Assembly (NCBI GenBank): GCA_903885375.1
Contig: CAISIK010000064.1
Coordinates: 456 to 64,455 of the forward strand
Direction: 5' to 3'
Length of the DNA stretch: 64,000 nucleotides
DNA from: an uncultured Pseudomonadota bacterium
Lineage (GTDB): Bacteria; Myxococcota_A; UBA796; SXON01
Shown here: positions 2,249 to 44,023 of the stretch, in pieces
Layout: every line of letters starts with the position of its first letter
Numbering within the stretch: the stretch's first letter is position 1
Translations under genes and position numbers: made by a program
The notes under the pieces: generated by a model
Database searches by the model: none
What the model saw: the letters and a program-made list of their open reading frames with translations, nothing else
What the model was told of the DNA's origin: nothing

Positions 2249-2252
2249 GCGC

Positions 2253-2555: not shown

Positions 2556-2591
2556 GCCGCACCCGCCTGGCGTGCTACATAGCGGCCCGTC

Positions 2592-3389
2592 ATGGTCCAC
2601 GCACCCCCCTCCGACACCCCCTGGTGGGCCCTTCGTTACGAGGAGCTCGCGGGCGTCGATCCCGCGCTGCTCGGCGTGAGCGACCACGATGCCGAGGCCG
2701 AGTTCGTGGAGCGCCTCGCGGGTTTCGGCGCCGGCGCGCGCCTGCTTGATGTGGGCTGTGGCCTCGGGCGGCAGGCGGGCGCGCTCAGCCAGCGCGGGCA
2801 CAACGTGAGCGGGGTCGACCTCAGTCCGCGTGTCTTGCGCCTGGCCCGCGAGCGGTGGAACCGACTGTTTCCCGGCGAGCGCGGCCCCAACTGGATGCCG
2901 GGTGACATGCGCTGGCTCCCCAACAGCGGCGTATACGATGGCGTGCTGCTGCTGGGTGGCTCGTTCGGGCTGTTCGCGAGCGACGCCGATCATCAGGCGG
3001 TGCTCGCGGCGGCGGCGCAGCAGGTCCGGCCGGGCGGTTCGCTCGTGATGCAAACGCCCAACCCCTACTGGTGGGCGGCCAAGGCCGGCACCCAGTACGT
3101 GGCTCCGGGCTCGTGGGCAGATGGCGTCGAGGTGGTGCAGAACGTGCGCTTCGATGCGGTGGCCGGCCGGGTCGACGAGCGCACGATCTGCTTCGTCGGG
3201 GGCCGGAGGGTGGAGCCGCCGGTGCAGTCGCTCCGCGCCTTCACTCCGGCGGAGCTCGTCGCGCTGGTGCGCGGCGCAGGCTTCCGCGAGGTCGAGGTTT
3301 CGGGCACGGAGGGCTGGACGGTTCCCGAGGAGCCATTGCCGGTGGATGCCACCGAGAGTGTGTGGCTGTGGGTGAGCGCGCGGAGCTGA
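2592..3389 (+). CDS. class I SAM-dependent methyltransferase
   Basis: 265-aa ORF with motif I LLDVGCGLGR, followed by a VSGVDLS acidic loop. Confidence 0.85.
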   Translation: MVHAPPSDTPWWALRYEELAGVDPALLGVSDHDAEAEFVERLAGFGAGARLLDVGCGLGRQAGALSQRGHNVSGVDLSPRVLRLARERWNRLFPGERGPNWMPGDMRWLPNSGVYDGVLLLGGSFGLFASDADHQAVLAAAAQQVRPGGSLVMQTPNPYWWAAKAGTQYVAPGSWADGVEVVQNVRFDAVAGRVDERTICFVGGRRVEPPVQSLRAFTPAELVALVRGAGFREVEVSGTEGWTVPEEPLPVDATESVWLWVSARS

Positions 3390-3425
3390 GGGCGGGGTAG
3401 ACTGCTGCGCCTCGCGGGGATTCCC

Positions 3426-5453: not shown

Positions 5454-5462
5454 GGGGGCGGC

Positions 5463-5921
5463 CTAGTCGAAGACGATCTCGCCGCCTGGCAGGAAGTACA
5501 GGATGAGCATGCGGCCGCCGCTGACGGTGGGGACGTGCTGACTGCCCGGCGGGTAGGCGATGAAGCGCTCGCGCTTGCCGTCGAAGCGGGGCTCGCCCGC
5601 GAGGTCGATGCAGAGCTCCACCTCGCCGCGGGGGTGCGTGTGGGCGCCCGCCGCGGGGCCATCCATGTCCACCACGTCGATGCTCAGGCCATGGCTGGCG
5701 GCATCGGCGCGGGTGAGGCGACCGAACTTCACGCCGCCGGCTTCTTTCGGCGTGAGCCACCCGGCCGCGTGGGCCGCGAGGGCAGTGGCCTCGAGGGCGG
5801 CGGTATCGAGCTGGTTCAGCGCCGCCACGAGCGTGTCGGGCGACCCGGTGCCTACGCGGGCAACCACCTCCGCAACCGGGAGGCAGTGCCGCAGCAGGTC
5901 CTCGCGCGTGACCACCATCAT
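5463..5921 (-). CDS. cupin-like protein (DUF4863-like from memory)
   Basis: 152-aa ORF with HTHPRGEVELC ... YPPGSQHVPTVSGGRMLILYFLPGG. Starts 4 nt after the actF stop on the same strand. Confidence 0.6.
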   Translation of the reverse strand: MMVVTREDLLRHCLPVAEVVARVGTGSPDTLVAALNQLDTAALEATALAAHAAGWLTPKEAGGVKFGRLTRADAASHGLSIDVVDMDGPAAGAHTHPRGEVELCIDLAGEPRFDGKRERFIAYPPGSQHVPTVSGGRMLILYFLPGGEIVFD

Positions 5922-5924
5922 CGC

Positions 5925-7271
5925 CTAGTGGGCGTGCCCGTGGCCGTGACCCTTGCCGACGTGAACGTGCACGTCGTCCGGGTGTTCGTGCATGAAGGGG
6001 TCGCTCACCACGACCGCCGGCACGCGGGCCAGGACGTTGAACACCACCGTGAGGAAGGCGGCCACGAAGCCGATGACCACACCCAGCTCGACGAGATGGA
6101 TGGGCAGGCTCGGCTTGGTCCACACCTGGGGCATGATGAGGTCGAAACGCTCGAGGAACACGCCGGTCGCGATCACCATCGACACCGCCACCAGGGAGCG
6201 GGGCGTCTTCTTGATGCCACGGCTCAGGAGCACGGTGAAGGGGATGAAGAAGCACATCGAGATGACCACCTTCGAGAGGCTGGCCCAGGGCTCGATGTAC
6301 ATGCGCAGGATCAGGTACCAGGTCTCTTCGGGCATGTTGCCGTACCAGATGGGCAGCAGGTGCGCGAAGAAGTTGTACGTCCAGAAGATGCACAGCGCGA
6401 AGATGAGCTTCCCGATGTCGTGGAAGTGCTTCGGCGTGATCAGGTGGCTGATCTTGAGCCAGTCGGCGGCAAACACGGCCACGATCACGGTCCAGTTCAG
6501 CGCCAGCCACACGTTCGAGACGAAGTGCCAAGCGGGGAACATGTTCGCGAACCAGTGCGGCGCGAGGGACATGATGTTGTCGACGGCGAAGAAGCTGAAG
6601 AACACGGCGTACAGAAGCACGATCACCGGCGCGAGGCGGATGTTCTTCTGGTAGGTGTCCTCGACCTCGGCGGCCTTGCCGCGCCAGCCGGCCGTGAAGT
6701 TCGACCAGAAGGCGGGGGTGCGGGTGCCGAGGGTCTCGGCGGCCACGCCCATGTCGGCGCGCATCGAGTTGCGGATGAACACGAAGTCGAGCACCATCAG
6801 GAGGCCGAGCATCCCGAGGTTGCGCGCCACGAAGAAGGCGGGCTGGAGCCAGACGGCCTTGTGGGGCGGCATCTCCTCGTGCATCCAGGGGAAGATCTCC
6901 AGGCCGCCGAGGGCCAGGAAGAGGATGTACAGCGCGTAGTTCACCGGCATGAAGAACCAGAACGATTCCGCGATGCGCTTGAACGGCCGGCCCCAGCGCC
7001 CGAGGGTGATGGTCTGGATGACCGTGAACATCAGGGCACCCTGGGACACGCCCATGAAGTACACGATGCAAACGAGCAGCACGCCGAGGGTACGGTTGTG
7101 TTCGGTGGAGAGGCCATAGGCGAGCGCGGCGAGGCCGATCGGCACGCCGATCATGCCGAAGGTCTTCACGCCGGCGGGCACCGTGCGCGGAGTGCCCGCG
7201 ATGGTGGCGGAGCAGTCAGGACCGGGACCGACGGTGCGTCGGGTAGCGGCGAGGACGTCGACGGTGCTCAT
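5925..7271 (-). CDS. actF: alternative complex III subunit ActF (NrfD-like membrane protein)
   Basis: 448-aa polytopic membrane ORF, last in the act gene order. ATGA overlap with actE. His-rich tail HVHVGKGHGHGHAH. Confidence 0.8.
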   Translation of the reverse strand: MSTVDVLAATRRTVGPGPDCSATIAGTPRTVPAGVKTFGMIGVPIGLAALAYGLSTEHNRTLGVLLVCIVYFMGVSQGALMFTVIQTITLGRWGRPFKRIAESFWFFMPVNYALYILFLALGGLEIFPWMHEEMPPHKAVWLQPAFFVARNLGMLGLLMVLDFVFIRNSMRADMGVAAETLGTRTPAFWSNFTAGWRGKAAEVEDTYQKNIRLAPVIVLLYAVFFSFFAVDNIMSLAPHWFANMFPAWHFVSNVWLALNWTVIVAVFAADWLKISHLITPKHFHDIGKLIFALCIFWTYNFFAHLLPIWYGNMPEETWYLILRMYIEPWASLSKVVISMCFFIPFTVLLSRGIKKTPRSLVAVSMVIATGVFLERFDLIMPQVWTKPSLPIHLVELGVVIGFVAAFLTVVFNVLARVPAVVVSDPFMHEHPDDVHVHVGKGHGHGHAH

Positions 7272-7936
7272 TTCGGCACTTCCGGGGCGGGCGGGGTGTA
7301 GGCCGCGTTGGGGAGGGTGCGCATGTAGGCGACGACGGCCCAGCGCTCGGCGTCGGTCAGGAGCGGGCCGTACGCCGGCATGCCGGCGCCGATTGCCGCT
7401 TCGACGGAGGTGCGGGTGGCCGAGGCGCCCGCGCTGCCGTTGCCGCCGTTGCGGATCGTGGCGTACAGGTAGCCGTCACTCAGCGTGCCGGTGCGGCTCG
7501 AGCTGCCGCTCAGCATCGGCGCGACCATCGGGAAGCGGCGGATGCCCTTGGCGGCGTCGTTCGTGGTGACAGGGCCATAGCCGGCGCCGTTCACGCCGTG
7601 ACAGGGCGCGCAATTCACCTGGAACATGCGCTCGCCCACCGCGAGGTGGTTTGGGTCGTTGGCGTAGGGGTTCACCAGGGCGTTGGTGGCCACCGCATCG
7701 AGGCGGTTCACTTCCGGCACCGTGGAGTTCTGGTAGTAGCCATCGGCCCGGGAGTGCGGGCGAGTGGAGGACACCCGCGCGGACACCGCGGCCGGCTGCG
7801 GCTTCATGCGCCACTCGTAGCCCTTGAACATGATGGCATCGATCATGTCGATGTCCCACGGGGAGGCCCACGCCGCGCCGGCCACGAAGACCGCGCCGAG
7901 GGTGAGCCATCGCGAACGGTTCTTCCACTCACCCAT
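7268..7936 (-). CDS. actE: alternative complex III monoheme cytochrome c subunit ActE
   Basis: 222-aa ORF with a single CAPCH heme motif and an N-terminal signal/anchor. Position matches the ACIII gene order. Confidence 0.8.
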   Translation of the reverse strand: MGEWKNRSRWLTLGAVFVAGAAWASPWDIDMIDAIMFKGYEWRMKPQPAAVSARVSSTRPHSRADGYYQNSTVPEVNRLDAVATNALVNPYANDPNHLAVGERMFQVNCAPCHGVNGAGYGPVTTNDAAKGIRRFPMVAPMLSGSSSRTGTLSDGYLYATIRNGGNGSAGASATRTSVEAAIGAGMPAYGPLLTDAERWAVVAYMRTLPNAAYTPPAPEVPK

Positions 7937-8461
7937 GGGTCACCTCGGTGGCGCCGGACGATTCGAGGATGTGAACGATCTCGTCCAGCCGGTTGCCGCT
8001 GCGCTCGAACACGATGCCGAAGCAGTCGTTCGTGAAGCGGGGGTCCTTCATCGCGGGATGCAGGTTCATGGCGGGAAGGCCGCAGAACTTGAGCAGGCCG
8101 GTGAGCGTGAACATCGAGGCCCAGAGGATGGTGCCTTCGAAGGTGACCACGAGGAACGGCGGAATGGACACCAGCGGCTTGCCACCGGGGATGATCATCG
8201 GCCAGTTGGCGTGCGTGAGCGACGCCAGGGAGAAGATCATCGTGCCGCCGAGGATGCCGCCCGCGAGGGTGAACCACCGCACGGGGCTCGGCTCACCCTT
8301 GTAGAGCATCTCGTCGATCTCGTGGCGGGGGATGGGGCTGAGGACCGTGAAGTCCTTGAGGCCGGCGTGCTGCAGGTCGTGGATGCCCTGAAGCAGGCAG
8401 TCCAGGTGCTTGTAGACGGCCTTCACCGTAGCGCCCGAGGCGCCCATGGCGTGGGAAGAGC

Positions 8462-8465
<4 letters not shown>
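7929..8465 (-). CDS. actD: alternative complex III subunit ActD (DUF3341-like)
   Basis: 178-aa ORF with two central hydrophobic helices, lying between actC and actE and overlapping both. Confidence 0.75.
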
Positions 8466-9795
<1,330 letters not shown>

Positions 9796-9796
<1 letters not shown>

Positions 9797-12700
9797 CAGC
9801 CCTCCTTGTGCTCGGCGCCGTGGCCGTGCGCGGGTGCTTCATCGGGTCCACCGTGGCCGCCGGGGGCTTCGGTGGGGGTGTGGGAATCGCCGTGGCCTTC
9901 CTCGTGGCCGCCGCCGTGCCCGCCGCCGTGGCTGAAGGCCGGCGCGTGGTGGCTGACCTTCGCCATGTAGCGAACACCGGGCTTGGTGTTGAGCTCGCCG
10001 AGCAGCGTGTAGGCGCGCGGGCTGGTGCCGAGCTGGCGAACCGTGGAGTCGGTGTCGTTCCAGTTGCCGAAGTTGATGGCTTCGGAGGGGCAGGCCGCGG
10101 CGCAGGCCGTGAGGCGCTGCAGCGCGGCATCGGGCACGCGATGCTTGTCCATGCTCACCGGCTTGCCGGGCTCGCGCTCTGCGAAGGCGGCATCACGCCA
10201 GTTGTCCTTCACGGAGCGCACGCGCTGCACGCAGAACGTGCACTTCTCCATCACGCCCATCTCTCGCGTGGAGAGCTCCGGGTTGAGCATGAGGTGGTAG
10301 CTCTGCGGCCACTCCCACGTGTGGTAGTTGAAGCGGCGGGCGGTGTACGGACAGTTGTTGGCGCAGTACCGGGTGCCCACGCACCGGTTGTAGATCATGG
10401 CGTTGAGGCCATCGAGGTTGTGGTAGGTGGCGAGCACCGGGCACACACCCTCGCACGGAGCGTGCGCGCAGTGCTGGCAGATGGCCGGCAGGTAGCGCAC
10501 GTCGGGGCTGTTCTCATCGCCTTCGAAGAACCGGTCCATGCGGATCCAGCTCATCGTGCGGCCCTTGCGGAGCTGGTCCGGACCCACAAACGGGGTGTTG
10601 TTCTCCACCGCGCAGGCAATCTGGCAGGCACCGCAGCCATTGCAGGCGTTGGTGTCGATGACCATCGAGAAGCGGTAGGTGGGGTGCTGGGGCTCGGGGA
10701 ACATGTCCACCGGGCCGGCCGCCTCGACGCGCGGGTCGGTGGGGAGGTGGTGGATGGGCACGATCGACTGGGCTTCACCCTCGACGTTCGCCACCGCATC
10801 GGCGGCGTTCACCCGGGCGGCGATGGTGCGGCCGTCCTGGTTCATGCTGCCGCACAGCGCGTGGAGACCGCTGTCGCCCTGCGTCCGGGTGATTCGCACG
10901 CGGGAGGTCAGGTTGAGCGCACCGGAGGCCGGGTCGACTTCGCCGCCGAGCAGGGCGAAGGCGTTGGCGCCGCGGCCCTTGGCGTACTTGCCGGTGGTCT
11001 TGCCGTTGCCCATCCGGAGCGCCACGGTGTCCTCGCGGACGGTCGGCGCGCCGAACCAGCCCACGGTCACGCTGCCGTGGTCGGTCTCCACCTTCACGAG
11101 GTCCTTCTCACCGAGGCCGAGCGACTCGGCCGTGCGGGGGTTGATCTCGATCCAGGTGTTCCAGAAGTAGGTGCTGACCGGATCGGGGAGCTCCTGCGCC
11201 CAGGGTACGTTGGCCCAGCGGCCATCACCGAGGTGGGAGGCGAAGAGGACCAGCGCGCGATCGCCGCTGCCGGAGTTGGTGCCTTCGGGGAGCGACGCGG
11301 CCACCCACGACACGGCCGCGAGGGCGGGGGGGGAGGCCACGAGGCCGATGGTCTGCACTTCCTGCCACCACGCGGCGGCGTTGGCGCCCGCGGGCATCAG
11401 GAGCGCGGTCCAGCGGGCCTTGACGAGCTCGCCGAAGTTGGCCGCCGACGCCACGAGGCTGGCGGTGGAGACCGGCGCGGGCGCGGCCACCGGGGCGACC
11501 GTGGCCGTGGAGTCTGCCGCGGGGGTGGCATCCGTGGAGCCTTCCAAGGGGGCAACCACCGCCTCCACCGGAGGAGCCGCGGGAGCCCATGCCTTCGCGA
11601 GGGTGAGCAGCGTATCGCCCAGGCCCCGGCTGTCGTGCAGCGGGACCATGCTGGGCTGACCGAGCACGTGCAGGCTGGATTCCACGCTCGCATCCGACCA
11701 CTGCTCGAGGCCCGAGCCGGTGGGGAGGACGAGGGTGTTCTCGCCGGTGGAGTCGTTCGCCTCGTCGGCGAACTGCACCACGAGGTCGACCTTGGCGAGC
11801 GCATCAGCTGCGCCGATCGCGGCGGGGAGCGCGTGGATGGCATCAATGCCATCGAGGAACAGCACGCCGATCTTGCCGGCCGCCGCATCCGCGACGAGCG
11901 ACTTCACGTCGGCGAACGAGTTCACCTGGCCGGGACGGAACCCGCGGCCGAACTGCACCGCCGTGCCGACGGCGCCGAGCACCATGTTGCAGAGGAGCGT
12001 GGCGACCGCGAGCGCGGTGGCGTCGGCGCCCTGCGTGGAGGGGCCGCCGGGGAGAACCACGGAGGGGGCCGCGGTGAGCATGGCCGCGAGCTCGGTGAGG
12101 CGCGCCTCGGCGATGCCGCTGGCGGCGCAGGCCGCGTTGACATCGACCCCGGAGAGCAGCGAGGCGCCGGCGCCGGAGTAGCCGTTGGCGGCGGCGCAGA
12201 GCTTCGCGAGCGCGAGGGCCACCTGCGTTTCGGTGCCGGGGAGGGCGCTCACCCAGTCATCGCAACCGATGCTGGAGCTGGAGAGGCGGGGCTCGATCGC
12301 CACGAGGCGGGCGGCAAACCCATCCGAGGCGGGATTGCGGGCCTTGGCGAAGCCCTTCCGCATGGCCATCGAACCGAAGGCGGAGTCGGCGAAGTCGAAG
12401 CCGAAGCTGACGACGGTACGGGCGCCGGCGAGCTCGTAGACGGGGAGCTCATCCACGCCGAAGGCAATGCGCGCGGCGGCGAGGAGGGGCTCCACGCCGA
12501 GCGTTTCCCAGTGAACCCGGCGAAGGCCACCCTCGGCGAGCACATCGAGGAGGGCGCTCGCGGTGCCCGTGCGGTAGCGACCGAGCCAGGCCACGGTCTT
12601 CCCGGCGGCGCGCGCGGCGGCGACCGCATCGAGCATCTGCTTGTCGGCATCGGCCCAGGAGAGGGTGGTGCGCTTGGCGGTGGCACCCGGCAGGCGGTCG

Positions 12701-13011
12701 GGACCGTAGGCCGCGATCAGGTCGAAGTGGCCGCGGGTGCAAAGCCCGGGGCCGCTCGGGTGATCGGGATTGCCTTCCACGCCGACCACACGGCCGTCGG
12801 TGTTGCGGGCGACCAGGCCGCAGGCCGTGGCACACCCGTTGCACAACGAGGCGTAGTAGGTGGCGAGCCCCGGCTGCACGTTCTCGGGGTTCACGACATA
12901 GGGGAGCACCTCTTCCTGAGGCACCTTGTAGTCGTAGGCGCAGGCCGCCGCGGTGGCCGAGGTGGCAACCGCGCCTGCCTTGAGGAAGTCGCGGCGGTTC
13001 AGTCCGTCCAT
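9796..13011 (-). CDS. actB: alternative complex III ActB (fused molybdopterin-like and 4Fe-4S domains)
   Basis: 1071-aa ORF. Tat signal NRRDFLKAG. Ferredoxin-type clusters CNGCGACQIAC, CQHCAHAPCEGVCP and CVGTRYCANNCP. His-rich C-terminal tail. Confidence 0.9.
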
Positions 13012-13022
13012 TGTGGCTCCGG

Positions 13023-13700
13023 CTACTTGTGACAGGTCCAGCAGTCCTTCAGCTCAGCGCGCCGAAGTTCTGCCTTGGTACCGTAGTTTTCGGTGATGCT
13101 CTCGTGCTGGGCGTGGCAGTCGAGGCACCAGCCCATGTTCAGCGGGGCGACGCGCTCGTTCACCGTCATGTTCTGCACTTCGCCATGGCACTCCTGGCAA
13201 TCCAGACCGGCGACGACGTGCCGCTTGTGCGAGAAGTAGACGTAGTCGGGAAGGTCGTGGACCTTCTTCCAGGGGATGACTTCGCCCTTGTCCCAGTATT
13301 CCTTGAGCTTCACGAGCTCGGGCCGGTCGGTCGTATCGACCAGCGCGTGGCAGCCCATGCACACGCTCGTGGCCGGCACGCCCGCGTGCACGCCCTTGCG
13401 CGCGTTGCTGTGACAGTAGTTGCAGTCCATGCCGAGGGTCTTGACGTGCCGCTCGTGGGTAAACGCGATCGGCTGCTCGATGGCTTCATCGAGGGGCTGG
13501 CCGACGGTGACCACGAGGTTCCGGTCGAAGAGCTCGGGGGGGAGAAGATTCTTCATTCCGATGGTGAAGGTCTCCTCGGAGGCCTCCTCCGCCGAAGCTT
13601 CGTCATCTTCTGCGTTGGCGCGCGTGGCGAAACCCGCCATCCCCACGGCCGCGCCTGTGAAGAGCACGATTGCCAGGGTGGCCCGGGTGAGCTGTCGCAT
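13023..13700 (-). CDS. actA: alternative complex III pentaheme cytochrome c ActA
   Basis: 225-aa ORF with five CxxCH motifs (CNYCH, CMGCH, CQECH, CLDCH, CWTCH) and an N-terminal signal. Confidence 0.9.
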   Translation of the reverse strand: MRQLTRATLAIVLFTGAAVGMAGFATRANAEDDEASAEEASEETFTIGMKNLLPPELFDRNLVVTVGQPLDEAIEQPIAFTHERHVKTLGMDCNYCHSNARKGVHAGVPATSVCMGCHALVDTTDRPELVKLKEYWDKGEVIPWKKVHDLPDYVYFSHKRHVVAGLDCQECHGEVQNMTVNERVAPLNMGWCLDCHAQHESITENYGTKAELRRAELKDCWTCHK

Positions 13701-27069: not shown

Positions 27070-27175
27070 GGGCATCGGTGCGGCGAGAGCCTCGCGCGCA
27101 CCCGGTCGCCCGCACGTCGAGGCGGCGCGCCGCGAACCACCTCAGGTTGTTGCCGTGAATATGTTCGGCGTGGGG

Positions 27176-27206
27176 TTGACAAAACTTTGGGGGGGGGGCG
27201 TATCCT
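27176..27206 (+). promoter_or_regulatory. candidate sigma-70-type promoter with a G10 tract in the spacer
   Basis: TTGACA (27176-27181), a 19-nt spacer containing G10, then TATCCT (27201-27206). GAGGA (27220-27224) precedes ATG 27229. Confidence 0.4.
27189..27198 (+). repeat. homopolymeric G10 tract
   Basis: Ten consecutive G. This is the longest homopolymer I found by eye in the window. Confidence 0.9.
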
Positions 27207-27228
27207 TGCCGTTCACCCTGAGGATTTC

Positions 27229-27981
27229 ATGTCTTGTTCCACGACCTTCGGCCCCACACAGAAAACCCTTGTCGCGACCTCCACCACGCTTCAGTACGAG
27301 TGGATGGGAGGGTGGGAGCTCGCGATCGGCGTCACCGCGCTCAAGGCGGTGATCAAGCGTCGCACTGCAACCGCCTTCCAGGCTCAGTTCGCGATCCAGA
27401 CCGCACCGGTGCGCACCGACAAGCCGAACGCGCCCGTGCCGCTGGGCACGCTCACCTCGGGCGAAGGCGAAACCTGCTCCACCGTGATTGACCTCACCAG
27501 CTACACGTCGGGCAACTTCTGGATTCGGGTGGGTGTGGCCTACTCGGCAACTTCGGCGACTGTTGGGAGCTGCGATGTCACGTTCACCGGCGGCCTCTCG
27601 CGTTGCGGTCGGTCGCTGGGGGTGCAGGTGTTCACGCTGTCCACCCTGAGCACGACCAACGCCTACCAGCCGATCACGGGCTGGCAGCCGGCGCTCGACC
27701 TCGAGGTGATCAAGGCGGCGATCGTGACCACGGGGATCATCGGCAACTTCCGGTTCCGGCTGGCTTACCGTCGTGCCACCACCAGCCAGGAGGTGCCCGG
27801 CGCGTGGTCGACTGACCTCACCTCCGAGTGGAGCCAGAACGGCGAAGCGGCGCTGAGTGACACGCCCTTGCCTAGCGTCGGCGCCGAGATGTGGGTGCAG
27901 ATCGGCATTCAGTACTACCTCTCCACCGGCAGCGCGCTCGGTCAGGCCACCGTGAGCGTAGCGCTCGCGGGCAAGCGGTGA
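27229..27981 (+). CDS. hypothetical tandem-duplicated beta-rich protein (island 1, gene 1)
   Basis: 250 aa from ATG 27229, no signal peptide. Two homologous halves (see findings). Codon usage is less GC-biased than the backbone. Confidence 0.65.
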   Translation: MSCSTTFGPTQKTLVATSTTLQYEWMGGWELAIGVTALKAVIKRRTATAFQAQFAIQTAPVRTDKPNAPVPLGTLTSGEGETCSTVIDLTSYTSGNFWIRVGVAYSATSATVGSCDVTFTGGLSRCGRSLGVQVFTLSTLSTTNAYQPITGWQPALDLEVIKAAIVTTGIIGNFRFRLAYRRATTSQEVPGAWSTDLTSEWSQNGEAALSDTPLPSVGAEMWVQIGIQYYLSTGSALGQATVSVALAGKR

Positions 27982-29459
27982 CGCCGGGGCAGACGTCGGG
28001 CGTCAGCGCAGGCGCGGGACCGGGGGAATCGGGAGCTGACGCCTTTCTCGGTCAGGCCTATCGAGCGTGGATGCTCGACGAGGCGGGGCGACAGTTTTCG
28101 CACGGTCCGACCTCGGCCGAGGTACAGGAGGCCATGCACGCTGTCGGTCCCCCACCTTCCGTGCTGGCCGAGGGAGTGCTGGCCGTGGTGGAGCAGGGCC
28201 CGAACGTTCAGCCCACCGTGGATGTCTGGATCAGCGCCGGGCCGCGTTCGTCGGTGAACTGGCTTGGCCAGGCGCTGCCGGCGGGGGAGGAGATCAGCTG
28301 CGACCAGGGGAGCACCGAGAGCTGCCGGATCTATCGCCTGCGCCTCAACATTCTGGCCCGCACCGCCACGGTCACCAAGGTGCAGGACCTCACCGGGATG
28401 GGCATGGGGTCGGTTCAGCCGGCGGTGGATGCGAGTGGGAGGCAATTGGCTACGGTAATCAACCGAGGGAAGTCGGCGAACGGAAACTATCCAGCCGCCG
28501 TCGGGCTTCTGCTCGATGACGGCGGCGGGTGGCCGATCTTCCTGCGCGAGCCGGTGGGCCCTTCCGCTCGCCGACCCGCGAAGCCGACGTTCTGGGGTGC
28601 CAAGCGAGTGCTGTGGACGTCGAACGTCGGGGGTGAGCTCGATGACAACAGCCCAAGTTGGTGGTGGGCGAACCTGATGCAATCGAATCTTGCTTCGGGT
28701 TCGGCTCCCAGCGTATTGCTGGGCGGTCCCGAGGGGGAGAACAGCGACAGCAACCCACCGCCGCCCTGCGAGGCCAACCCAGATTGGCCGAGCGCCGACT
28801 GTGTGAGCTGGCGGGATGCCCAGGTTCACCCCAACCCGGCGGCGTTGAGCCATCTGGTAGCCGCGGAATGGGTCACCGTGTTCGGCCGCCACGGTGTCGA
28901 CCCGCTCGCCGCCGAAGGCAGGCCGATCGTGGCGCGGCTGCCCGATGGGTCCGCCATCCAGGAGTTCGACCTCGGCAACGGCAACGAGGGGGACTCGATT
29001 GTGGGCTGCCACCATCCCGCCTGGAGCATCACGGGCGGGGAGATTGCCTGTACGAGGGAAAAGTCCTTTGATGACACGGTCGGTCTTGAACTCGACGTAC
29101 ACGGCCTTTACGGCTTCCGCTTCCCAAACTTTGGGCGTTGGCAGAACCAAGGCGAGGTGATCAGGAGCACCGACGTTCGTGGCGATCCCGATTTCCCCCA
29201 CTTTCACGGGCTTGCCTACTCGGGTAACGACCATCCTGTCCTCAGCTACAAATACGCCACATGGGTAGCCTCCGACCGTTGGATAGCCGCCACCGTTTTC
29301 ATCACCCAGGGCGGCTCGCACAACGTCCTGATGAGCCGGGTGGTGCTGTTCGACACCACCGGAGCAGAGGCTCCCTTGGATCTGGTCGAGTTCGTCGAGG
29401 ACGCAGAGGGGGCCACCCGCGGCGAGTGGCGGGCGGTGTCCAGCGAGGCGCGGCGATGA
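27978..29459 (+). CDS. hypothetical protein with degenerate TolB/PD40-like beta-propeller repeats (island 1, gene 2)
   Basis: The in-frame GTG at 27978 overlaps the upstream stop (GTGA). Trp/Gly-rich repeats such as HHPAWSITGGEIACT and ATWVASDRWIAAT. Start uncertain. Confidence 0.55.
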   Translation: MTPGQTSGVSAGAGPGESGADAFLGQAYRAWMLDEAGRQFSHGPTSAEVQEAMHAVGPPPSVLAEGVLAVVEQGPNVQPTVDVWISAGPRSSVNWLGQALPAGEEISCDQGSTESCRIYRLRLNILARTATVTKVQDLTGMGMGSVQPAVDASGRQLATVINRGKSANGNYPAAVGLLLDDGGGWPIFLREPVGPSARRPAKPTFWGAKRVLWTSNVGGELDDNSPSWWWANLMQSNLASGSAPSVLLGGPEGENSDSNPPPPCEANPDWPSADCVSWRDAQVHPNPAALSHLVAAEWVTVFGRHGVDPLAAEGRPIVARLPDGSAIQEFDLGNGNEGDSIVGCHHPAWSITGGEIACTREKSFDDTVGLELDVHGLYGFRFPNFGRWQNQGEVIRSTDVRGDPDFPHFHGLAYSGNDHPVLSYKYATWVASDRWIAATVFITQGGSHNVLMSRVVLFDTTGAEAPLDLVEFVEDAEGATRGEWRAVSSEARR

Positions 29460-30463
29460 CCGCGCGGGTGGTCCTCTTCGGTGTGCTGGTAGGGTCCTGC
29501 TCCTGTGTGCCACCCAACGACGCGGACACCGGGGGCCGCAGCAAGAGCGGCGAGGGGAAGGATTCCGGGGACACCGGCGAGCAGACCGCGCGCACCTGCC
29601 CCGACGAGCCGTGGATTGATGTGCAGGTGTCGTGGGACTCCGCGTGTGGTCTCCACGAGGGCGGCTGCATCGAGTGTTGGGGGCGCAATGAAAACGGCGG
29701 CTGGGGGTTGTACGACCCGCCCGATCTGGTAGCGGCTTCCATGACCATCGCCGAGGTGAGCTACGAAGATACCGTCGAGGATGGTACGTATCCCGGCGGA
29801 TGCGCCATCACGCCTGAAGGAGACATGGAGTGTTGGGGAGCGGGGGACTACGGGAGCACGCATCCCACGTCGGATGTCGCGGCGGTGGAGTTGTCCGACT
29901 ATGGCGCGATCGGGGTGCTCACGCTCAATGGCGAGTTGTTTCTCACCAGCCACGGGAAATATTCGCACCTTCCTGTCCCGGACCTCACTGGCCCCTTCGG
30001 CGTGGGTAACTATCGGGTGGCCGGTGTGACCGGCGGGCGATTGTTGTCATGGAAGGGGCAAGGTGGGAGCGAAGAATTGGAGCTGGTTGCGGACTTCGGA
30101 CTGGTTGCTGATTGGCGGTGGTTGCGACACCTTGGCGAGCTTCACATGGTTGGCGCGAGGTTGGATGGCGCCCTGGTGATCTTTGAGGCGAGCCAATACC
30201 ACGGGGATGCCGTTGAGATAGCCCCTCCGGGCTCCGAGTGGGTCGACCTGTTTGCATACCCCTACATCGTCCAGGACGCCGACGGCTACCTCTTCTGGCT
30301 CGAGGATGTGGCGGCCGGGCCCGTGGTTCCCGATCCGATGATGCGCTTCGACATGCGGCAGGGCGGCGATGGTTGCGGCGTGACCTTCGATGGCCGCGTC
30401 CAGTGCATCGGGCCGTTCGCCGCGGAATACCCCCCGCCAGGAAGCTACGTGGTGGGTCCGTAG
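29456..30463 (+). CDS. RCC1-like repeat lipoprotein (island 1, gene 3)
   Basis: ATG 29456 overlaps the upstream stop (ATGA). Lipobox VGSCSC and a DTG tether. Recurrent CWG-type motifs (IECWG, MECWG, VQCIG). Confidence 0.6.
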   Translation: MTARVVLFGVLVGSCSCVPPNDADTGGRSKSGEGKDSGDTGEQTARTCPDEPWIDVQVSWDSACGLHEGGCIECWGRNENGGWGLYDPPDLVAASMTIAEVSYEDTVEDGTYPGGCAITPEGDMECWGAGDYGSTHPTSDVAAVELSDYGAIGVLTLNGELFLTSHGKYSHLPVPDLTGPFGVGNYRVAGVTGGRLLSWKGQGGSEELELVADFGLVADWRWLRHLGELHMVGARLDGALVIFEASQYHGDAVEIAPPGSEWVDLFAYPYIVQDADGYLFWLEDVAAGPVVPDPMMRFDMRQGGDGCGVTFDGRVQCIGPFAAEYPPPGSYVVGP

Positions 30464-30502
30464 GATGGACGGGGAGACGTGAGCCCCGCCCCCCCCGCCT
30501 CC

Positions 30503-32074
30503 CTACCAGCGCGTGCGCGCCGCGGCCGACAGCACCGTGACCGTGCCCCCGCCGAGGTTGTCGGCGGCGAGGAGGTGGCCGCCCTGGAGGAGGAGGGCGG
30601 GCTGGAGCTGCCACACACGCTTCAGCGGGACATCGCCGAGCTGGATGGCCCAGTCGATCTCGGTGCCGAGGTCGTAGCCCTCGGTGACCTCGCCGAGGTG
30701 GTTGGTGGGCACGCCGCCGTTGCGGGCCGTGGTGAAGGGCTGCTGAACGGGGTTGGTGTTCCAGGCCAGCAGCACGCCCGCCTTCAGGCTGAGCCACTTC
30801 TTCGGGGTGACCTCCACGATCGGCTGCACGAACGCCGCGTGGCGGAAGGCGCCCTCGGCCACCAGCGACTCGGCGCCATCGGGCGCCCCGCCGCTGTGCG
30901 CGGGGTCCTGGAGCTGCGCGTAGGCTGCCGCATCGACCGCGCCGAGCACCTCGTCGAACAGCACGCTGCCCACGTCGAAGTCGCGATCGAAGGTGAAGTC
31001 GTTGCTCGCGCGGTCGTCGGGGTTGGTGTCGCCGCTGGCCCAGCCGCCGCGGGCGGCCACGCGGAGCGGCACGGCCTTCAGGCGGGCCTCGGCGAGGCCG
31101 GTGACACCGGCCGCCTGCACCGTGAGGCCCTCGCGGCTGGAGTAGCTCTGCCCCCGCGTGGTCTCGCCGAAGATGCCGGCGCCTTCTACCGCGAAGCGGA
31201 GGTCGGCCCCCCGCAGCGGGACGGGCAGATCGCCGAACGCGTCGACGACGTGCGCCTGGGTGGTGCGCACGGCGTCGAGCTCGGTCTGGTCGCGGTAGAC
31301 GTAGTACACGCCGGTGCGCGCCCCCTCCCGCTCGCCGTAGATGGCCGAGGCCACGAGCTGCCAGGCCTCCTCGCCGCCTTCGAGGGGGCTCCAGTCGGCG
31401 AGCTCATCCTCCACCACGCGGTCGCCGGCCACCACGAGGGTCAGCGGCTTGCCCACGAGGGGGCGCGTGGCCACGCGGAGGCGGATCACCCGGTCGCCGA
31501 AGTCGTTGCGGCCGAACTCCGGGTCGGTGGCGCCGTCGTTGGCCACCATGCCGAGGCCCCAGCGGCTGGTCACGAGGCCGCCTTCGAGGGCCACGGGCCC
31601 CACCCGGCCGCCGATGCTCAGGCGCCGCGCGGTGAAGGCGTCGGGGCGCGTGAGGAGGTCGAGGGATTCGCGGTGGCGCGCATCCTCCGTGCCGCGGATG
31701 TCCCAGGCATCGCCGGCGAGCTGGCCATCGAAGAGGTCCCACTCCGTCCTGGCGTCAAAACCCTTCCAGGAAAAGCCGACGCCGGCGCGGAGGCGGGAGT
31801 CGAGGACCAGGGATTGGCCGAGGGTGTTGCCTTCGTCGTCTACCTGCAGGTCGGCGGGCGGGAGGCTGGCGATGAGCCGCGCTTCGCCCGTGGTGGAGAA
31901 CCATTGGGGGAGGCCGCGACTCTCGGCGAGCGCCGCGGCGGCCTCGGCGGGGGTTTGGGCGCCGGTTGCATCCTTCTCGGCGGCGTGGCCCGGATCGACC
32001 AGACCAAGCATCAGGATCGGGGTCATTCGCCACCCCCCGTGTCGCCTTCGGGCAGGGCGGGGAGCCAGGCGCAC
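30503..32074 (-). CDS. putative outer-membrane beta-barrel protein
   Basis: 523-aa ORF with an Arg-rich, then hydrophobic N-terminus. Alternating beta-type sequence ending in Trp. An alternative ATG at 32026 overlaps the upstream stop (ATGA). Confidence 0.6.
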   Translation of the reverse strand: MRLAPRPARRRHGGWRMTPILMLGLVDPGHAAEKDATGAQTPAEAAAALAESRGLPQWFSTTGEARLIASLPPADLQVDDEGNTLGQSLVLDSRLRAGVGFSWKGFDARTEWDLFDGQLAGDAWDIRGTEDARHRESLDLLTRPDAFTARRLSIGGRVGPVALEGGLVTSRWGLGMVANDGATDPEFGRNDFGDRVIRLRVATRPLVGKPLTLVVAGDRVVEDELADWSPLEGGEEAWQLVASAIYGEREGARTGVYYVYRDQTELDAVRTTQAHVVDAFGDLPVPLRGADLRFAVEGAGIFGETTRGQSYSSREGLTVQAAGVTGLAEARLKAVPLRVAARGGWASGDTNPDDRASNDFTFDRDFDVGSVLFDEVLGAVDAAAYAQLQDPAHSGGAPDGAESLVAEGAFRHAAFVQPIVEVTPKKWLSLKAGVLLAWNTNPVQQPFTTARNGGVPTNHLGEVTEGYDLGTEIDWAIQLGDVPLKRVWQLQPALLLQGGHLLAADNLGGGTVTVLSAAARTRW

Positions 32075-41398: not shown

Positions 41399-41448
41399 GA
41401 GACGCGCCGCGACCGTCCGCTGGGCAAATCGGGGCAGGTGCGCGTCTC
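41399..41448 (+). repeat. conserved stem-loop element, copy B
   Basis: 9-bp stem GAGACGCGC/GCGCGTCTC encloses a 32-nt loop whose first 17 nt equal those of copy A. Confidence 0.6.
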
Positions 41449-41563
41449 GGCGCGACCGGGCGCGCCGCCTAAACCGGGGCATGCAAGCTGTGAAACTGGC
41501 GGCAGGCCACGGGTTGGACATTTTTTTCTGACAGCGGCGGCATTGCGCCGGGGACCGGGTACA

Positions 41564-42109
41564 ATGCTGGACCGCTCCGGGGTTCACGCTCCGGGGTTCA
41601 TCATGCGTATGTGGACTGGTAATGGTGCCTTTCAATGGGAAGCTTCCCGCAAGTGGGAACTGAACGCGGCCTCCGAATTCTGCAGAGGCGATGGCGCGGT
41701 GCTCATTCCTGGGGGGCTTCAATCGTTCAGCGTGTTTTTCCGCCGAGCCAGTCAGTCGGCGGGGACATTCACCCTCAAGGTGCACACAACTCCGATCTAT
41801 ACGCAGCTGCTCGATACCGAGGTCACCTCGAACAACGCGGCCGCTACCCTGCTTCCGCTCGCCGTACAGCCGCTCACCGGCTTGGAGATGACCTCCACTG
41901 GGGCCAAAGTGTTTGGGGCGAGGATCGACCCTTCGCAAGCCATGGGCACCGTGCTGTTCTGGGAGGTGGCCAACACCGTTGCCGGTGGCGTTCTGGTCGG
42001 CGACATCTACCTCGTGGCCAATCATCAAGGCGCAGTAGCGAACCCGAGGTTCGCTCGGACCGTGGACGACCCCGACGGTCAGGGCGGCACCAACCCGCGA
42101 ATGCGGTGA
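41564..42109 (+). CDS. hypothetical single-domain beta-rich protein, apparent paralog of the 27229 product (island 2, gene 1)
   Basis: ORF 41438-42109 with candidate ATG starts at 41564 or 41603. Shares the QxE...WEL and RR...F.L...TP motifs with the island 1 protein. Confidence 0.55.
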   Translation: MLDRSGVHAPGFIMRMWTGNGAFQWEASRKWELNAASEFCRGDGAVLIPGGLQSFSVFFRRASQSAGTFTLKVHTTPIYTQLLDTEVTSNNAAATLLPLAVQPLTGLEMTSTGAKVFGARIDPSQAMGTVLFWEVANTVAGGVLVGDIYLVANHQGAVANPRFARTVDDPDGQGGTNPRMR

Positions 42110-42118
42110 GGGGCGATC

Positions 42119-42460
42119 ATGGCCTACATCGACAGGCCGAGCAAGGAGTTGCTGACCTACTACCGCGGCACGGTTTCTGCGCTGAAGGTGGAGCAGTACG
42201 ACGAGCGGGACCAGATTTGGTTCATCCTGGACTTGACGGAAGAAACGGCCGCGCTGCCTCCATTCGGCTACACGCTGCCGGTCGGGCACGAGGTGCACTA
42301 TCTGTGCATCTACCGCGATATCGGCACCACGGTCGCGCTGGCCCAGCTGCAGTTGTTGCGCACGGCGCTGATGGAGCGGGCCGAGGTGGGGGTGTGGGCG
42401 CTGCGCGACCTCGCAACGACGACGCAATTTGTCTACTCCGTCTGCTTGTATCCGGGATAA
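42119..42460 (+). CDS. hypothetical protein (113 aa; island 2, gene 2)
   Basis: ATG 42119 lies 9 nt after the previous stop, behind a GGTGAGGGG purine run. No family recognised. Confidence 0.5.
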   Translation: MAYIDRPSKELLTYYRGTVSALKVEQYDERDQIWFILDLTEETAALPPFGYTLPVGHEVHYLCIYRDIGTTVALAQLQLLRTALMERAEVGVWALRDLATTTQFVYSVCLYPG

Positions 42461-42749
42461 GCAGAATTTTGTTATGGGAGCGGGCGGGCGTAACGGCAAG
42501 TGACCAGCGTGGAGCGCGGCCCGGTCGAGGCGGGGGACTGATGGCGGGTGGCCAACTCGGATTGCGGCGACGGGAATGGTGGGTGGGCCTGAGTGCGGGC
42601 GTGGCGTACCGCAGGGCCAAAGTGTTTGCCGCAGCACGTCCGCATCTCCCAGTCCGTTCCGCGCGGCACGTCCGGCAGGACAGGGCTGACGAAGCGAGGG
42701 AGGGGATACAGGCGGGCGCCGTGACCGGGCTTCGAGCCTACTCGAGTAG

Positions 42750-43640
42750 ATGGAGCGGCCGAGGGCTCCTCGTTTGGGGCGAGCGACGGCCGGTGAGCCA
42801 CCGGGCGCCCGCGAAGGTGCGGCCCGCGCGGAGGTGCCGGTGAGTACGGGCAGTCCGGGGCTTCCTCTGGTCGCGGTGCGAGTTCGGCCGACTCTCTTCG
42901 TCGGAGACGCGGGCTCGGCCAGTGCAAATGCGGTCGCCAAATGCAGCGAAATGATGCGGCTCACCACCACGGCATTTGCTCAGGCAGGAGTGGTTCTTGC
43001 CTGGGAAACACTGAGAATCGTCGAGAGTGCCACGATGGAGCGAGCCGCGAGCGGTCGCCAGTCGGCGTGGACGGAGGGGCAGTGCACGCCATCGGCGTCA
43101 TGGATGGACGTTTTCTTCATTGAGAACACCTACGCTGACGCCGACGCCGAGGTGTCGCCCTCGTCGGGTCGGCCGGAATTCCACGGAGTGACCCTTCACC
43201 CCGATCCGAGTGCCTCCCCTCCGCTCCTTGGCTGGGGCGTGTGGGTGTACTGGCAGGTCTCGACGTGGACCACCCTGGCTCACGAACTCGGGCATGCTTT
43301 CGGCCTGCCCCACGTCGATACAGGGAGCGGGTCATATTCGGAGACGATAGAGGAGTTTAGGCTTGACGATTACGCCTTCATGCCGTTCGAAAATGACACG
43401 GTGGGGGTGGGCTCAAACCTGATGATTCAGGGGACTGACAGCACAAGCGACCCCAGCGACTTCACTTGGACGCACGGTCAGGTGCTGTTGATGCGTCGGA
43501 CGCTCGCGTCGCGTGCGAGCCGGTGGGCCTTTGCTTCGTCCTATTGGCGAAGTTGGGGGGGGCGGGACACGCTCCCGGTCGGTTTCGTTCGGCTGCCTGA
43601 TTGCGTCAGCTTTCTGGGTGCCGAATGGGGGTGGCCGTGA
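42750..43640 (+). CDS. metzincin-type zinc metalloprotease (HExxHxxGxxH)
   Basis: HELGHAFGLPH motif. Start ATG 42750 or GTG 42840. No obvious signal peptide. Confidence 0.75.
   Translation: MERPRAPRLGRATAGEPPGAREGAARAEVPVSTGSPGLPLVAVRVRPTLFVGDAGSASANAVAKCSEMMRLTTTAFAQAGVVLAWETLRIVESATMERAASGRQSAWTEGQCTPSASWMDVFFIENTYADADAEVSPSSGRPEFHGVTLHPDPSASPPLLGWGVWVYWQVSTWTTLAHELGHAFGLPHVDTGSGSYSETIEEFRLDDYAFMPFENDTVGVGSNLMIQGTDSTSDPSDFTWTHGQVLLMRRTLASRASRWAFASSYWRSWGGRDTLPVGFVRLPDCVSFLGAEWGWP
43554..43562 (+). repeat. homopolymeric G9 tract inside the metalloprotease CDS
   Basis: Nine consecutive G, lying in the codons that read SWGGR. Second-longest homopolymer seen by eye. Confidence 0.9.
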
Positions 43641-44023
43641 AGGCAGCGAACTGGGGCGCGGTTCGAGTGTTCGCTGCACTGCTTTTGACCCTGACGGCCG
43701 CGTGCCAGGAAGATGTCTGGGAATGCGCTGGGGATGACTGCGCTTGCGCAGTGGATGACGACTGCGTCATCACCACCTGCGCGTCATCCGCCGATGCCTT
43801 CGAGTGCTCTCCCGAGTGCCCATGTACCAATGGATGGCCCCTGCCCAGGTCCGTGGCCGATCGCGTCGCGGCCGCCAGCTTGGCGGAAGGGTGCGGGCAT
43901 TGCGAGCAGTCGTCTGTGGTGGGGAGCTGTATTCGGACCGAGTGCGACGTCGTCGAGTTGGAAGCCAGTTGCCGCTTGGGCAGGTGTGTCGGCGTGCCCG
44001 CGGGTGGTCGTGCAGCACCCTGA
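43637..44023 (+). CDS. Cys-rich lipoprotein overlapping the metalloprotease stop
   Basis: GTG 43637 overlaps the protease stop (GTGA); ATG 43625 is an alternative. Lipobox LTAAC, then 16 Cys including DDDCVITTCAS. Confidence 0.6.
   Translation: MKAANWGAVRVFAALLLTLTAACQEDVWECAGDDCACAVDDDCVITTCASSADAFECSPECPCTNGWPLPRSVADRVAAASLAEGCGHCEQSSVVGSCIRTECDVVELEASCRLGRCVGVPAGGRAAP

What the first reader, a model, noticed from the sequence alone, without database searches (positions are those of the whole stretch)
27229..27981. Island 1 lead protein is an internal tandem duplication of a beta-rich domain
The two halves align by eye. GWELAIGVTALKAVIKRRTATAFQAQFAIQ pairs with GWQPALDLEVIKAAIVTTGIIGNFRFRLAY. 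FWIRVGVAYSATSATVGSCDVTFTGG pairs with MWVQIGIQYYLSTGSALGQATVSVALAG. Two tandem beta-sandwich or jelly-roll-like domains in a 250-aa cytoplasm-synthesised protein is an unusual architecture that I cannot place in a named family.
Basis: seen in the sequence. Interest (0 to 1): 0.6.

Follow-up and report, generated by a model that had tools for sequence, protein, structure and literature searches.

The report
Duplicated jelly-roll lead protein of effector cassettes
The 250-residue protein really is two fused copies of one small beta-sandwich domain, belongs to an unnamed family confined to one order of myxobacteria-like bacteria, and is the constant first gene of small mobile cassettes whose second gene swaps its business end like a polymorphic toxin.

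Summary
Observation confirmed. The two halves of the ORF at 27229-27981 align with a Smith-Waterman score of 91 against 30.6 +/- 5.5 for shuffles (z = 11). AlphaFold2 gives a confident all-beta model (pLDDT 93.7, pTM 0.86) with 8 + 7 strands in two sandwiches.

No Pfam, NCBIfam, PHROG, PADLOC or PDB sequence match exists. Foldseek finds only generic tandem jelly-roll proteins at TM 0.25-0.33. The family has about 494 clusters, sits in one order of the phylum, is patchy (0-11 copies per genome) and also occurs as 125-residue single-domain genes. A domain tree shows one old duplication and fusion.

The new part is context. In about 30 loci the gene is first in a low-GC3 island. It directly precedes a signal-less, often Cys-rich protein of 350-550 residues, and a lipoprotein or membrane protein usually follows. 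The lead protein's clade tracks the first ~60 residues of that neighbour, while the neighbour's C-terminal domains (beta-propeller, HExxH and others) are shuffled and travel with the third gene.

I read it as the constant partner (escort or targeting subunit) of an undescribed polymorphic effector-immunity cassette (confidence 0.45). Type VI secretion is absent from these genomes, so the export route is unknown.

The parts
27070..30502 (.). Accessory island (3.4 kb) between the phosphodiesterase-fusion gene (stop 27069) and the convergent barrel-like gene (30503-32074, minus strand).
   Evidence: GC is 0.64-0.68 here against about 0.72 in the flanks. In congeners G004 and G005 the two flanking genes end 10-20 nt apart, an empty site. 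G003 carries an unrelated 3.2-kb insert at the same junction.
27176..27206 (+). Promoter-like site: TTGACA, a 19-nt spacer containing G10 (27189-27198), then TATCCT.
   Evidence: Read from the sequence. The consensus scan allows only 16-18 nt spacers and so did not list it. Simple-sequence repeats recur upstream of family members in other loci.
27229..27981 (+). g1: the 250-aa duplicated beta-sandwich protein, which is the finding.
27229..27600 (+). g1 N-terminal domain (residues 1-124), 8 strands. Conserved positions: W29, Q57, A59, R62, P66, R100, G102.
27601..27978 (+). g1 C-terminal domain (residues 125-250), 7 strands. Conserved positions: C126, G127, W152, P154, A183, W193, G226.
27978..29459 (+). 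g2: a 493-aa signal-less protein whose GTG start overlaps the g1 stop (GTGA). It has an N-terminal helical module of roughly 60-75 residues followed by a beta-propeller-like body with an invariant CHHPAW motif.
   Evidence: Homologues follow g1 in L002, L003, L028, L043 and L060. The model has pLDDT 57 and pTM 0.66, and all Foldseek hits are propellers.
29456..30463 (+). g3: a 335-aa Cys-rich RCC1-like lipoprotein (MTARVVLFGVLVGSC...) whose ATG overlaps the g2 stop (ATGA).
   Evidence: Pfam RCC1_2 hit. The lipobox was seen by eye and by regex. Homologues follow every window-type g2 whatever the g1 clade.

Best explanation
g1 is a fused pseudo-dimer of a jelly-roll-like beta-sandwich domain of about 123 residues. 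It is the constant first component of a three-gene polymorphic effector cassette.

I propose that g1 physically pairs with the short helical N-terminal module (about 60 residues) of the protein encoded immediately downstream. In this role it would act as the effector's escort, targeting or carrier subunit. The effector's C-terminal domain (a beta-propeller in this window, an HExxH zincin or other Cys-rich domains elsewhere) is the exchangeable payload. The third gene, a lipoprotein or membrane protein, would be the cognate protector.

Shown here:
- the duplication and the fold;
- the family's distribution;
- the gene order;
- the co-inheritance of g1 with the N-terminal module;
- the shuffling of C-terminal domains together with the third gene;
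- the cassette being an insertion.

Inferred, not shown:
- the physical g1-effector interaction;
- that the effector is toxic;
- that g3 protects;
- the export route. It is not type VI secretion, and it does not depend on a type III or flagellar export gate.
For: Duplication and fold.

One old fusion: N halves, C halves and single-domain relatives each form one group, with support 98/84, 100/98 and 96/92.

Unfused relatives: 125-aa single-domain genes exist.

Gene order: in about 30 of 33 loci a same-strand ORF of 150-555 aa abuts or overlaps the g1 stop.

Co-variation with the N-terminus: the g1 tree clades coincide with the N-terminal classes of the neighbour. Of 25 locus pairs with close g1, 15 share the neighbour's first 110 residues (z > 9), against 1 of 326 pairs with distant g1 (z > 6).

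Shuffled C-termini: 20 of 326 distant-g1 pairs share the C-terminal part (z > 8), while only 3 of the 25 close pairs do.

Breakpoint: two cassettes in one genome (L046 and L053) show 60-90% DNA identity from -80 through g1 and about 230 nt into the next gene, then fall to background.

Third gene: it tracks the C-terminal class across three g1 clades.

Mobility: empty sites in congeners, and the same cassette in unrelated flanks.

Simple-sequence repeats lie upstream in many loci.
Against: - No experiment or co-fold shows that g1 binds the N-terminal module. Adjacent DNA is co-inherited by linkage alone, so the co-variation could simply mark a recombination breakpoint.
- No known toxin domain was detected in g2. 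The HExxH class rests on a motif only.
- The g2 model is of low confidence.
- No secretion system could be tied to the cassettes. The proposed effectors lack signal peptides, yet their presumed protectors are extracytoplasmic.
- Arrays of g1 paralogues occur without interleaved effectors (L025, L057). These do not fit a strict one-escort-one-effector model.
- g3 is large (335 aa) for an immunity protein.
Confidence: 0.45

Rival explanations
1. g1 is an independent lectin-like or surface-associated structural protein (tandem carbohydrate-binding sandwiches). It merely shares a variable island and promoter with unrelated accessory genes. On this view the link with the neighbour's N-terminus is plain genetic linkage.
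For: Foldseek hits include tandem CBM22 modules, phage receptor-binding and minor tail proteins, and the SIDT1 ectodomain. Some members carry an extra C-terminal beta domain (P0097, P0103) or a loop insertion of GSGY..GGGGSGA repeats (P0064), as surface-exposed binders do. Paralogue arrays occur without effectors. Repeat-bearing promoters are typical of surface contingency genes.
Against: No signal peptide, and no carbohydrate-binding family hit. The breakpoint lies consistently about 60 codons inside the next gene rather than between the genes. That argues the N-terminal module belongs functionally with g1.
Confidence: 0.25
2. g1 descends from, or is related to, double jelly-roll capsid proteins and assembles into a capsid-like shell or lattice. 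The neighbour would be packaged through its N-terminal module.
For: It has two jelly-roll-like domains in one chain of about 250 aa. PRD1/PR772 P3, the STIV turret protein and a tectivirus capsid protein appear among Foldseek hits at E 1e-5 to 1e-4. Single-domain and fused forms coexist, as in single and double jelly-roll capsids.
Against: TM to those capsid proteins is only 0.23-0.26, and non-viral tandems score better. No packaging ATPase, penton or other virus hallmark gene occurs in any neighbourhood with precomputed Pfam. No DUF2961 or capsid profile match beyond an insignificant E = 0.08. The islands are only 2-4 genes long.
Confidence: 0.08
3. g1 is the protector or regulator of the cassette: an inhibitor that keeps the downstream enzyme inactive in the producer's cytoplasm.
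For: It is encoded with overlapping stop and start next to a signal-less enzyme-like protein. A cytoplasmic inhibitor would make sense for a protein made without a signal peptide.
Against: Protectors co-vary with the toxic domain. g1 co-varies with the N-terminal module instead, and is paired with unrelated C-terminal domains. The third gene shows the protector-like pattern.
Confidence: 0.07

Closest known systems
Polymorphic toxin loci with an upstream accessory or targeting gene. Examples are T6SS effectors with Eag/DUF1795, DUF4123 or DUF2169 adaptors, and T7SS LXG toxins with small Lap partner proteins (recalled from my own knowledge of the literature, not tested here).
   Same: A constant accessory gene lies directly upstream of a protein with a conserved N-terminal module and exchangeable C-terminal domain. 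A gene that travels with that C-terminal domain follows. The loci are multi-copy, patchy and island-borne.
   Different: The accessory protein has an unrelated fold (tandem jelly-roll-like sandwiches) and no profile match to any adaptor family. The T6SS sheath gene is absent from the genome and from 60 of 61 relatives. No LXG, PAAR, Rhs or other known trafficking domain was detected.
[quoted passage not shown]
   Same: Two eight-stranded jelly-roll-like domains arise from duplication within one polypeptide. Single-domain relatives exist. There is weak Foldseek similarity to PRD1 P3.
   Different: TM is 0.23-0.26 only. No Pfam DUF2961 hit and no viral gene neighbourhood. At 250 aa it is smaller than most such capsid proteins.
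XepA (PBSX lytic-cassette protein) and YomS of Bacillus subtilis prophages (PMC6834076; PDB 6i56).
   Same: A signal-less protein of about 280 residues built of two beta-sandwich domains. A single-domain relative (YomS) exists. Second-best Foldseek E-value, 3e-6.
   Different: TM is 0.28-0.30 at rmsd about 20 A, with 8% identity and no sequence match. XepA sits in a phage lysis module, not before a polymorphic protein. Its pentameric dumbbell assembly could not be tested for g1.
The island 2 cassette of the same window (41399-44023): jelly-roll-like lead protein, small protein, signal-less metzincin, Cys-rich lipoprotein
   Same: The layout is the same: a beta-rich lead gene, a signal-less enzyme, a Cys-rich lipoprotein, lower GC and a slippery tract near the promoter.
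   Different: Its lead protein shows no profile similarity to the g1 family (hhalign probability 0.2%). Its fold was not modelled here.

Membership tests
[quoted passage not shown] | Two jelly-roll domains in one chain. | tested here: met
   AF2 model with 8 + 7 strands in two sandwiches, pLDDT 93.7. Halves are homologous.
[quoted passage not shown] | Close structural match to known members, with the same mutual orientation of the two rolls giving a pseudo-hexagonal trimer. | tested here: not met
   PRD1/PR772 P3 TMq is 0.23-0.26 at rmsd 15-16 A. PM2 P2 is not among the top 50. The oligomeric state cannot be tested with these tools.
[quoted passage not shown] | Viral genome context (FtsK/HerA-type packaging ATPase, penton protein). 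| tested here: not met
   Neighbourhoods with precomputed Pfam hold metabolic, regulatory and toxin-antitoxin genes only. The islands are 2-4 genes long.
DUF2961 (cellular double jelly-roll glycosidase-like family) | Match to the Pfam DUF2961 profile. | tested here: not met
   Zero Pfam families at E <= 10.
T6SS effector adaptors and chaperones (DUF1795/Eag, DUF4123, DUF2169) | Profile match to an adaptor family. | tested here: not met
   No Pfam or NCBIfam hit.
T6SS effector adaptors and chaperones (DUF1795/Eag, DUF4123, DUF2169) | A type VI secretion apparatus in the same genome. | tested here: not met
   TssC/VipB (PF05943) is absent from the own genome and found in 1 of 61 relatives, while the control genome rings.
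Polymorphic toxin-immunity systems | Conserved N-terminal region with exchangeable C-terminal domains. | tested here: met
   Pair statistics and breakpoint.
Polymorphic toxin-immunity systems | A downstream gene that co-varies with the C-terminal domain. | tested here: met
   The RCC1-like lipoprotein follows all four window-type C-terminal domains across three g1 clades. Other classes have other lipoproteins or membrane proteins. Only one class was tested quantitatively.
Polymorphic toxin-immunity systems | C-terminal domain is a recognisable toxin, or toxicity is shown. | tested here: inconclusive
   No Pfam, NCBIfam or PADLOC hit. An HExxH motif occurs in 8 of 34 neighbours. The window's g2 is a generic propeller. 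Toxicity cannot be tested here.
XepA/YomS | Sequence or close structural similarity to XepA. | tested here: inconclusive
   Foldseek E = 3e-6 and probability 1.0, but TM 0.28 and 8% identity. No PDB sequence hit.
Type III secretion substrates and chaperones | An export gate (FHIPEP) present wherever the family is present. | tested here: not met
   FHIPEP is missing in 7 of 27 genomes that have full-length g1, several of them 92-96% complete.

The most novel reading that the evidence does not exclude
The g1 domain family (single or fused) is a self-assembling jelly-roll carrier. On this reading it forms a capsid-like or ring-like oligomer that loads the downstream effector through its N-terminal module. 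It would then release or deliver the effector without any classical secretion system. That would be a new, non-viral use of the duplicated jelly-roll architecture and a new delivery route for polymorphic toxins in myxobacteria that lack type VI secretion.
Probability: 0.08. Interest if true: 0.9.

Novelty: new variant of a known kind. Interest (0 to 1): 0.6.

Why it matters
If the reading is right, it defines a protein family without any database name. The family has about 500 clusters at 50% identity. It would be the hallmark gene of a previously undescribed polymorphic effector system in an order of predatory or social myxobacteria-like bacteria that lack type VI secretion.

That gives a handle for finding the effectors, their protectors and an unknown export route in these organisms. 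The domain occurs both as single genes and as a fused pair, with one clear fusion event. This also makes it a clean small model for how duplicated jelly-roll proteins arise, a step that is central to theories of capsid protein origins.

If the rival linkage-only reading is right, it remains a confidently modelled new beta-sandwich family of unknown role.

Tried and rejected
- **T6SS adaptor idea:** rejected, because TssC is absent.
- **Dependence on a type III or flagellar export gate:** rejected, no co-occurrence.
- **Anti-phage defence system:** no PADLOC hits for g1, g2, g3 or three HExxH neighbours.
- **HK97 capsid hint from NCBIfam:** E = 0.08 and 11.9 bits against an 80-bit cut-off. Treated as noise.
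- **Homology between g1 and the island 2 lead protein:** none by profile comparison.
- **Flanking repeats for the island:** no direct or inverted repeats beyond chance-level short matches.
- **22-nt DNA repeat inside g1:** 27511 against 27742, 82% identity. It is out of register with the domain period (231 nt rather than 369 nt) and was treated as chance.
- **Genome-contig scan:** returned only one locus, labelled 'uncultured proteobacterium', so it gave no taxonomy.
- **Literature search for a described system:** found nothing relevant.
- **g2 structure:** low confidence, and it yielded only 'beta-propeller'.
- **The look-up of sequencing runs:** Expression and tract-length variation in reads could not be examined.

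Full report
**The object.** The finding points to the ORF at 27229-27981 on the + strand. Its ATG is preceded by GAGGA at a proper distance, and it translates to 250 residues. A longer TTG-started version (27187) exists, but relatives begin with a conserved M-[S/A/T/G]-C, so 27229 is the start. The N-terminus has no hydrophobic stretch, judged by eye only.

**The duplication.**
- A local alignment of the first against the second half scores 84-91. Shuffled second halves score 30.6 +/- 5.5, giving z = 9-11, and 0 of 500 shuffles reach the observed score.
- In 108 family members of 240-280 residues the median z is 11, and 84% exceed z = 5.
- Equivalent conserved positions appear in both halves: W29/W152, the Q-x-A-x-x-R-x-x-x-P loop against R-x-A...P-x-A-W, R100-x-G102 against Q224-x-G226, and a Cys at the start of each repeat (C3 and C126).

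**The fold.** AlphaFold2 on a 10-sequence alignment gives mean pLDDT 93.7 and pTM 0.86. The model has only strands: eight in residues 4-124 and seven in residues 128-249.

Foldseek against the PDB and against predicted viral structures returns many hits at E 1e-6 to 1e-4. All are tandem or single jelly-roll or beta-sandwich proteins: SIDT1 ectodomain, XepA, PRD1/PR772 P3, IBDV VP2, the STIV turret protein, a CBM22 pair, and phage minor-tail and receptor-binding proteins. Global TM is only 0.2-0.33 with rmsd above 10 A.

So the domains are jelly-roll-like, and no structural homologue of the two-domain arrangement is known. Sequence libraries give nothing:
- Pfam: 0 hits at E <= 10.
- NCBIfam: one insignificant hit.
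- PHROGs: one insignificant hit.
- PADLOC: 0 hits.
- PDB sequences: 0 hits.

**The family.**
- A word-indexed search found only 10 relatives. An exhaustive profile search found 494 clusters at 50% identity (E <= 0.001) and 127 at E <= 1e-30, nearly all 245-270 residues long.
- In whole genomes the family is single-copy in the window's own 6.0-Mb assembly.
- It is present in 33 of 61 relatives, with 0-11 matches per genome.
- Within the phylum it is confined to one order: 17 of 301 sampled genomes at E <= 1e-10, all of that order.
- The lineage is high-GC. I did not establish the taxonomy myself.

**Unfused relatives and the origin of the duplication.**
- The same profile matches ORFs of about 125-150 residues over one domain only.
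- A near-complete genome carries six or seven such genes in tandem (L057 8920-11852).
- In a tree of 31 N halves, 31 C halves and 14 single-domain proteins, each group is one side of a branch (98/84, 100/98 and 96/92). The N and C halves lie together against the single-domain group.
- The fusion therefore happened once, before the two-domain family diversified, and both forms persist.

**Context: a mobile three-gene cassette.**
- In the window g1 is followed by g2 (27978-29459, GTGA overlap) and g3 (29456-30463, ATGA overlap). All sit in a 3.4-kb stretch of lower GC.
- Congeners G004 and G005 have the two flanking genes 10-20 nt apart, which is an empty site. G003 has a different 3.2-kb insert there.
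- The same g1-g2-g3 trio sits in unrelated surroundings in metagenomic contigs L002, L003 and L060, and in G004 (L028).
- g2 has no family hit. Its model is weak (pLDDT 57, pTM 0.66). It shows two N-terminal helices of low confidence and a body that matches only beta-propellers. It has an invariant CHHPAW motif.
- g3 is a Cys-rich RCC1-like lipoprotein.

**The general pattern.**
- I fetched about 35 further loci from relatives.
- In about 30 of 33 loci with sequence downstream, a same-strand ORF of 150-555 residues abuts or overlaps the g1 stop.
- These neighbours lack signal peptides by eye and are often very Cys-rich, with up to 27 Cys.
- They fall into unrelated C-terminal classes: the window's propeller type (WIN, L003, L028, L043), an HExxH type (eight loci), and several others.
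- They are usually followed by a small or mid-sized Cys-rich lipoprotein or a multi-pass membrane protein.

**What goes with what.**
- The g1 tree has well-supported clades. Each clade coincides with one type of N-terminus of the neighbour, while C-terminal classes are mixed within clades.
- Of 25 locus pairs with close g1, 15 share the neighbour's first 110 residues (z > 9) but only 3 share the rest.
- Of 326 pairs with distant g1, only 1 shares the N-terminus (z > 6) but 20 share the C-terminal part (z > 8).
- Two cassettes of one genome (L046 and L053 of G040) are 60-90% identical in DNA from about 80 nt upstream of g1, through g1, and about 230 nt into the next gene. Identity then falls to background.
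- The third gene behaves the opposite way. The RCC1-like lipoprotein accompanies every propeller-type C-terminus, whichever g1 clade leads.
It is followed by an RCC1-like protein and has an A10 tract upstream. So the unfused domain does the same job.

**Interpretation.** This is the anatomy of polymorphic toxin loci: a constant delivery-related part, an exchangeable payload, and a protector that travels with the payload. Here the constant part is g1 plus about 60 codons of the next gene.

g1 cannot be the protector, because it does not track the payload. The most economical reading is that g1 binds the N-terminal module and serves as escort, targeting or carrier subunit. The extracytoplasmic location of the third-gene products suggests the payload acts outside the cytoplasm.

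This is inference. No interaction, toxicity or protection has been shown, and linkage alone would also keep adjacent DNA together. The breakpoint lies inside the neighbour rather than between the genes, and it does so in many independent clades. That is what makes me prefer a functional unit. I give this reading 0.45.

**Tests of specific mechanisms.**
- A T6SS adaptor role is excluded. The sheath gene TssC is absent from the genome and from 60 of 61 relatives, while the control rings.
- A type III or flagellar export gate is present in 43 of 61 genomes, but it is missing in 7 of 27 genomes with full-length g1.
- No defence-system model matches.
- A capsid relationship is not supported by TM scores or by gene context. 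It is not excluded at the level of distant ancestry.
- Features that point to an exposed binding surface fit a lectin-like or receptor-binding role. These are an extra beta domain at the C-terminus of some members, a repeat insertion in a domain-2 loop of P0064, and paralogue arrays without effectors. That role may be part of the partner function or may be independent of it.

**Promoters.** The window has TTGACA, a 19-nt spacer holding G10, then TATCCT (27176-27206). Upstream regions of family members elsewhere often hold homopolymer, di-, tri- or longer repeats. It fits contingency-type expression but was not studied further.

**Verdict.** The architecture is a single ancient fusion of two copies of an unnamed jelly-roll-like domain.

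The added value is that this domain, fused or not, marks an undescribed family of mobile, polymorphic effector-like cassettes restricted to one bacterial order, with no known secretion system attached. I rate it a new variant of a known kind (polymorphic effector loci with an accessory lead gene) and give it interest 0.6. The mechanism is inferred from comparative genomics only.

Noticed in passing
Upstream 130 nt of g1-family genes in WIN (27189-27198 G10), L043 (G8), L028 (G11), L047 (C9), L023 (C7 and CT repeats), L037 (A9), L020/L021 (GTC repeats), L022 (GGC repeats), L040 (CT repeats), L030 (GC repeats), L049 (17-mer x3), L039 (8-mer x3), L069 (A10): Simple-sequence repeats of many kinds recur just upstream of family members. 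This suggests slippage-controlled expression of the cassettes.
   Followed up: partly
L062 (G003:C39) 1936-5137, against window 27070-30502: A congener carries a different 3.2-kb insert at exactly the same junction between the phosphodiesterase-fusion gene and the barrel-like gene. The insert holds two lipoproteins, one FG-GAP/VCBS-like, plus a 333-aa protein on the opposite strand. The site looks like a hot spot for accessory genes.
   Followed up: partly
L063 (G010:C19) and L064 (G006:C20): In two congeners the 862-aa membrane/phosphodiesterase fusion gene upstream of the island is missing altogether. The methyltransferase gene abuts the barrel-like gene.
   Followed up: no
L057 (G309:C1) 8920-11852, fragment at 12976-13224: Array of six or seven tandem single-domain (about 125 aa) paralogues of the g1 domain in a lower-GC3 stretch of a near-complete genome.
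   Followed up: partly
L025 (G057:C4) 5090-11299: Four tandem two-domain paralogues lie about 1.1 kb downstream of, and on the same strand as, a secreted matrixin-like protease (Pfam Peptidase_M10, E = 5.5e-6). One paralogue is extended by an additional C-terminal beta-rich domain of about 170 aa, also seen in P0097 and P0103.
   Followed up: partly
P0064, residues ~215-290: A family member has an insertion of two GSGY-x-x-x-P-x-V-x-F-x-GGGGSGA-like repeats in a loop of the second domain. From memory, this motif resembles repeats in phage fibre or structural proteins.
   Followed up: no
L029 9000-9734 (minus strand): An HExxH-class neighbour, truncated at its N-terminus, contains a run CNSCECCECCECCECCECCECYECYEYC. 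This is an unusual Cys-Glu repeat.
   Followed up: no
window 27978-29459 (g2): Invariant CHH-x-x-W (C344, H345, H346, W349), C116-R117, C358 and D365 in all seven aligned homologues of the propeller-type protein. This may be a metal or active site.
   Followed up: no
window 41438-42109 (island 2 lead protein): The beta-rich lead protein of the second low-GC island in this window shows no profile similarity to the g1 family, although the cassette layout is analogous.
   Followed up: partly
L002 519-2705: In this metagenomic contig the g1 gene is called as only 150 aa. Profile matches to g1 positions 1-33 lie in another frame of a long ORF, which suggests a frameshift or assembly error in that copy.
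   Followed up: no
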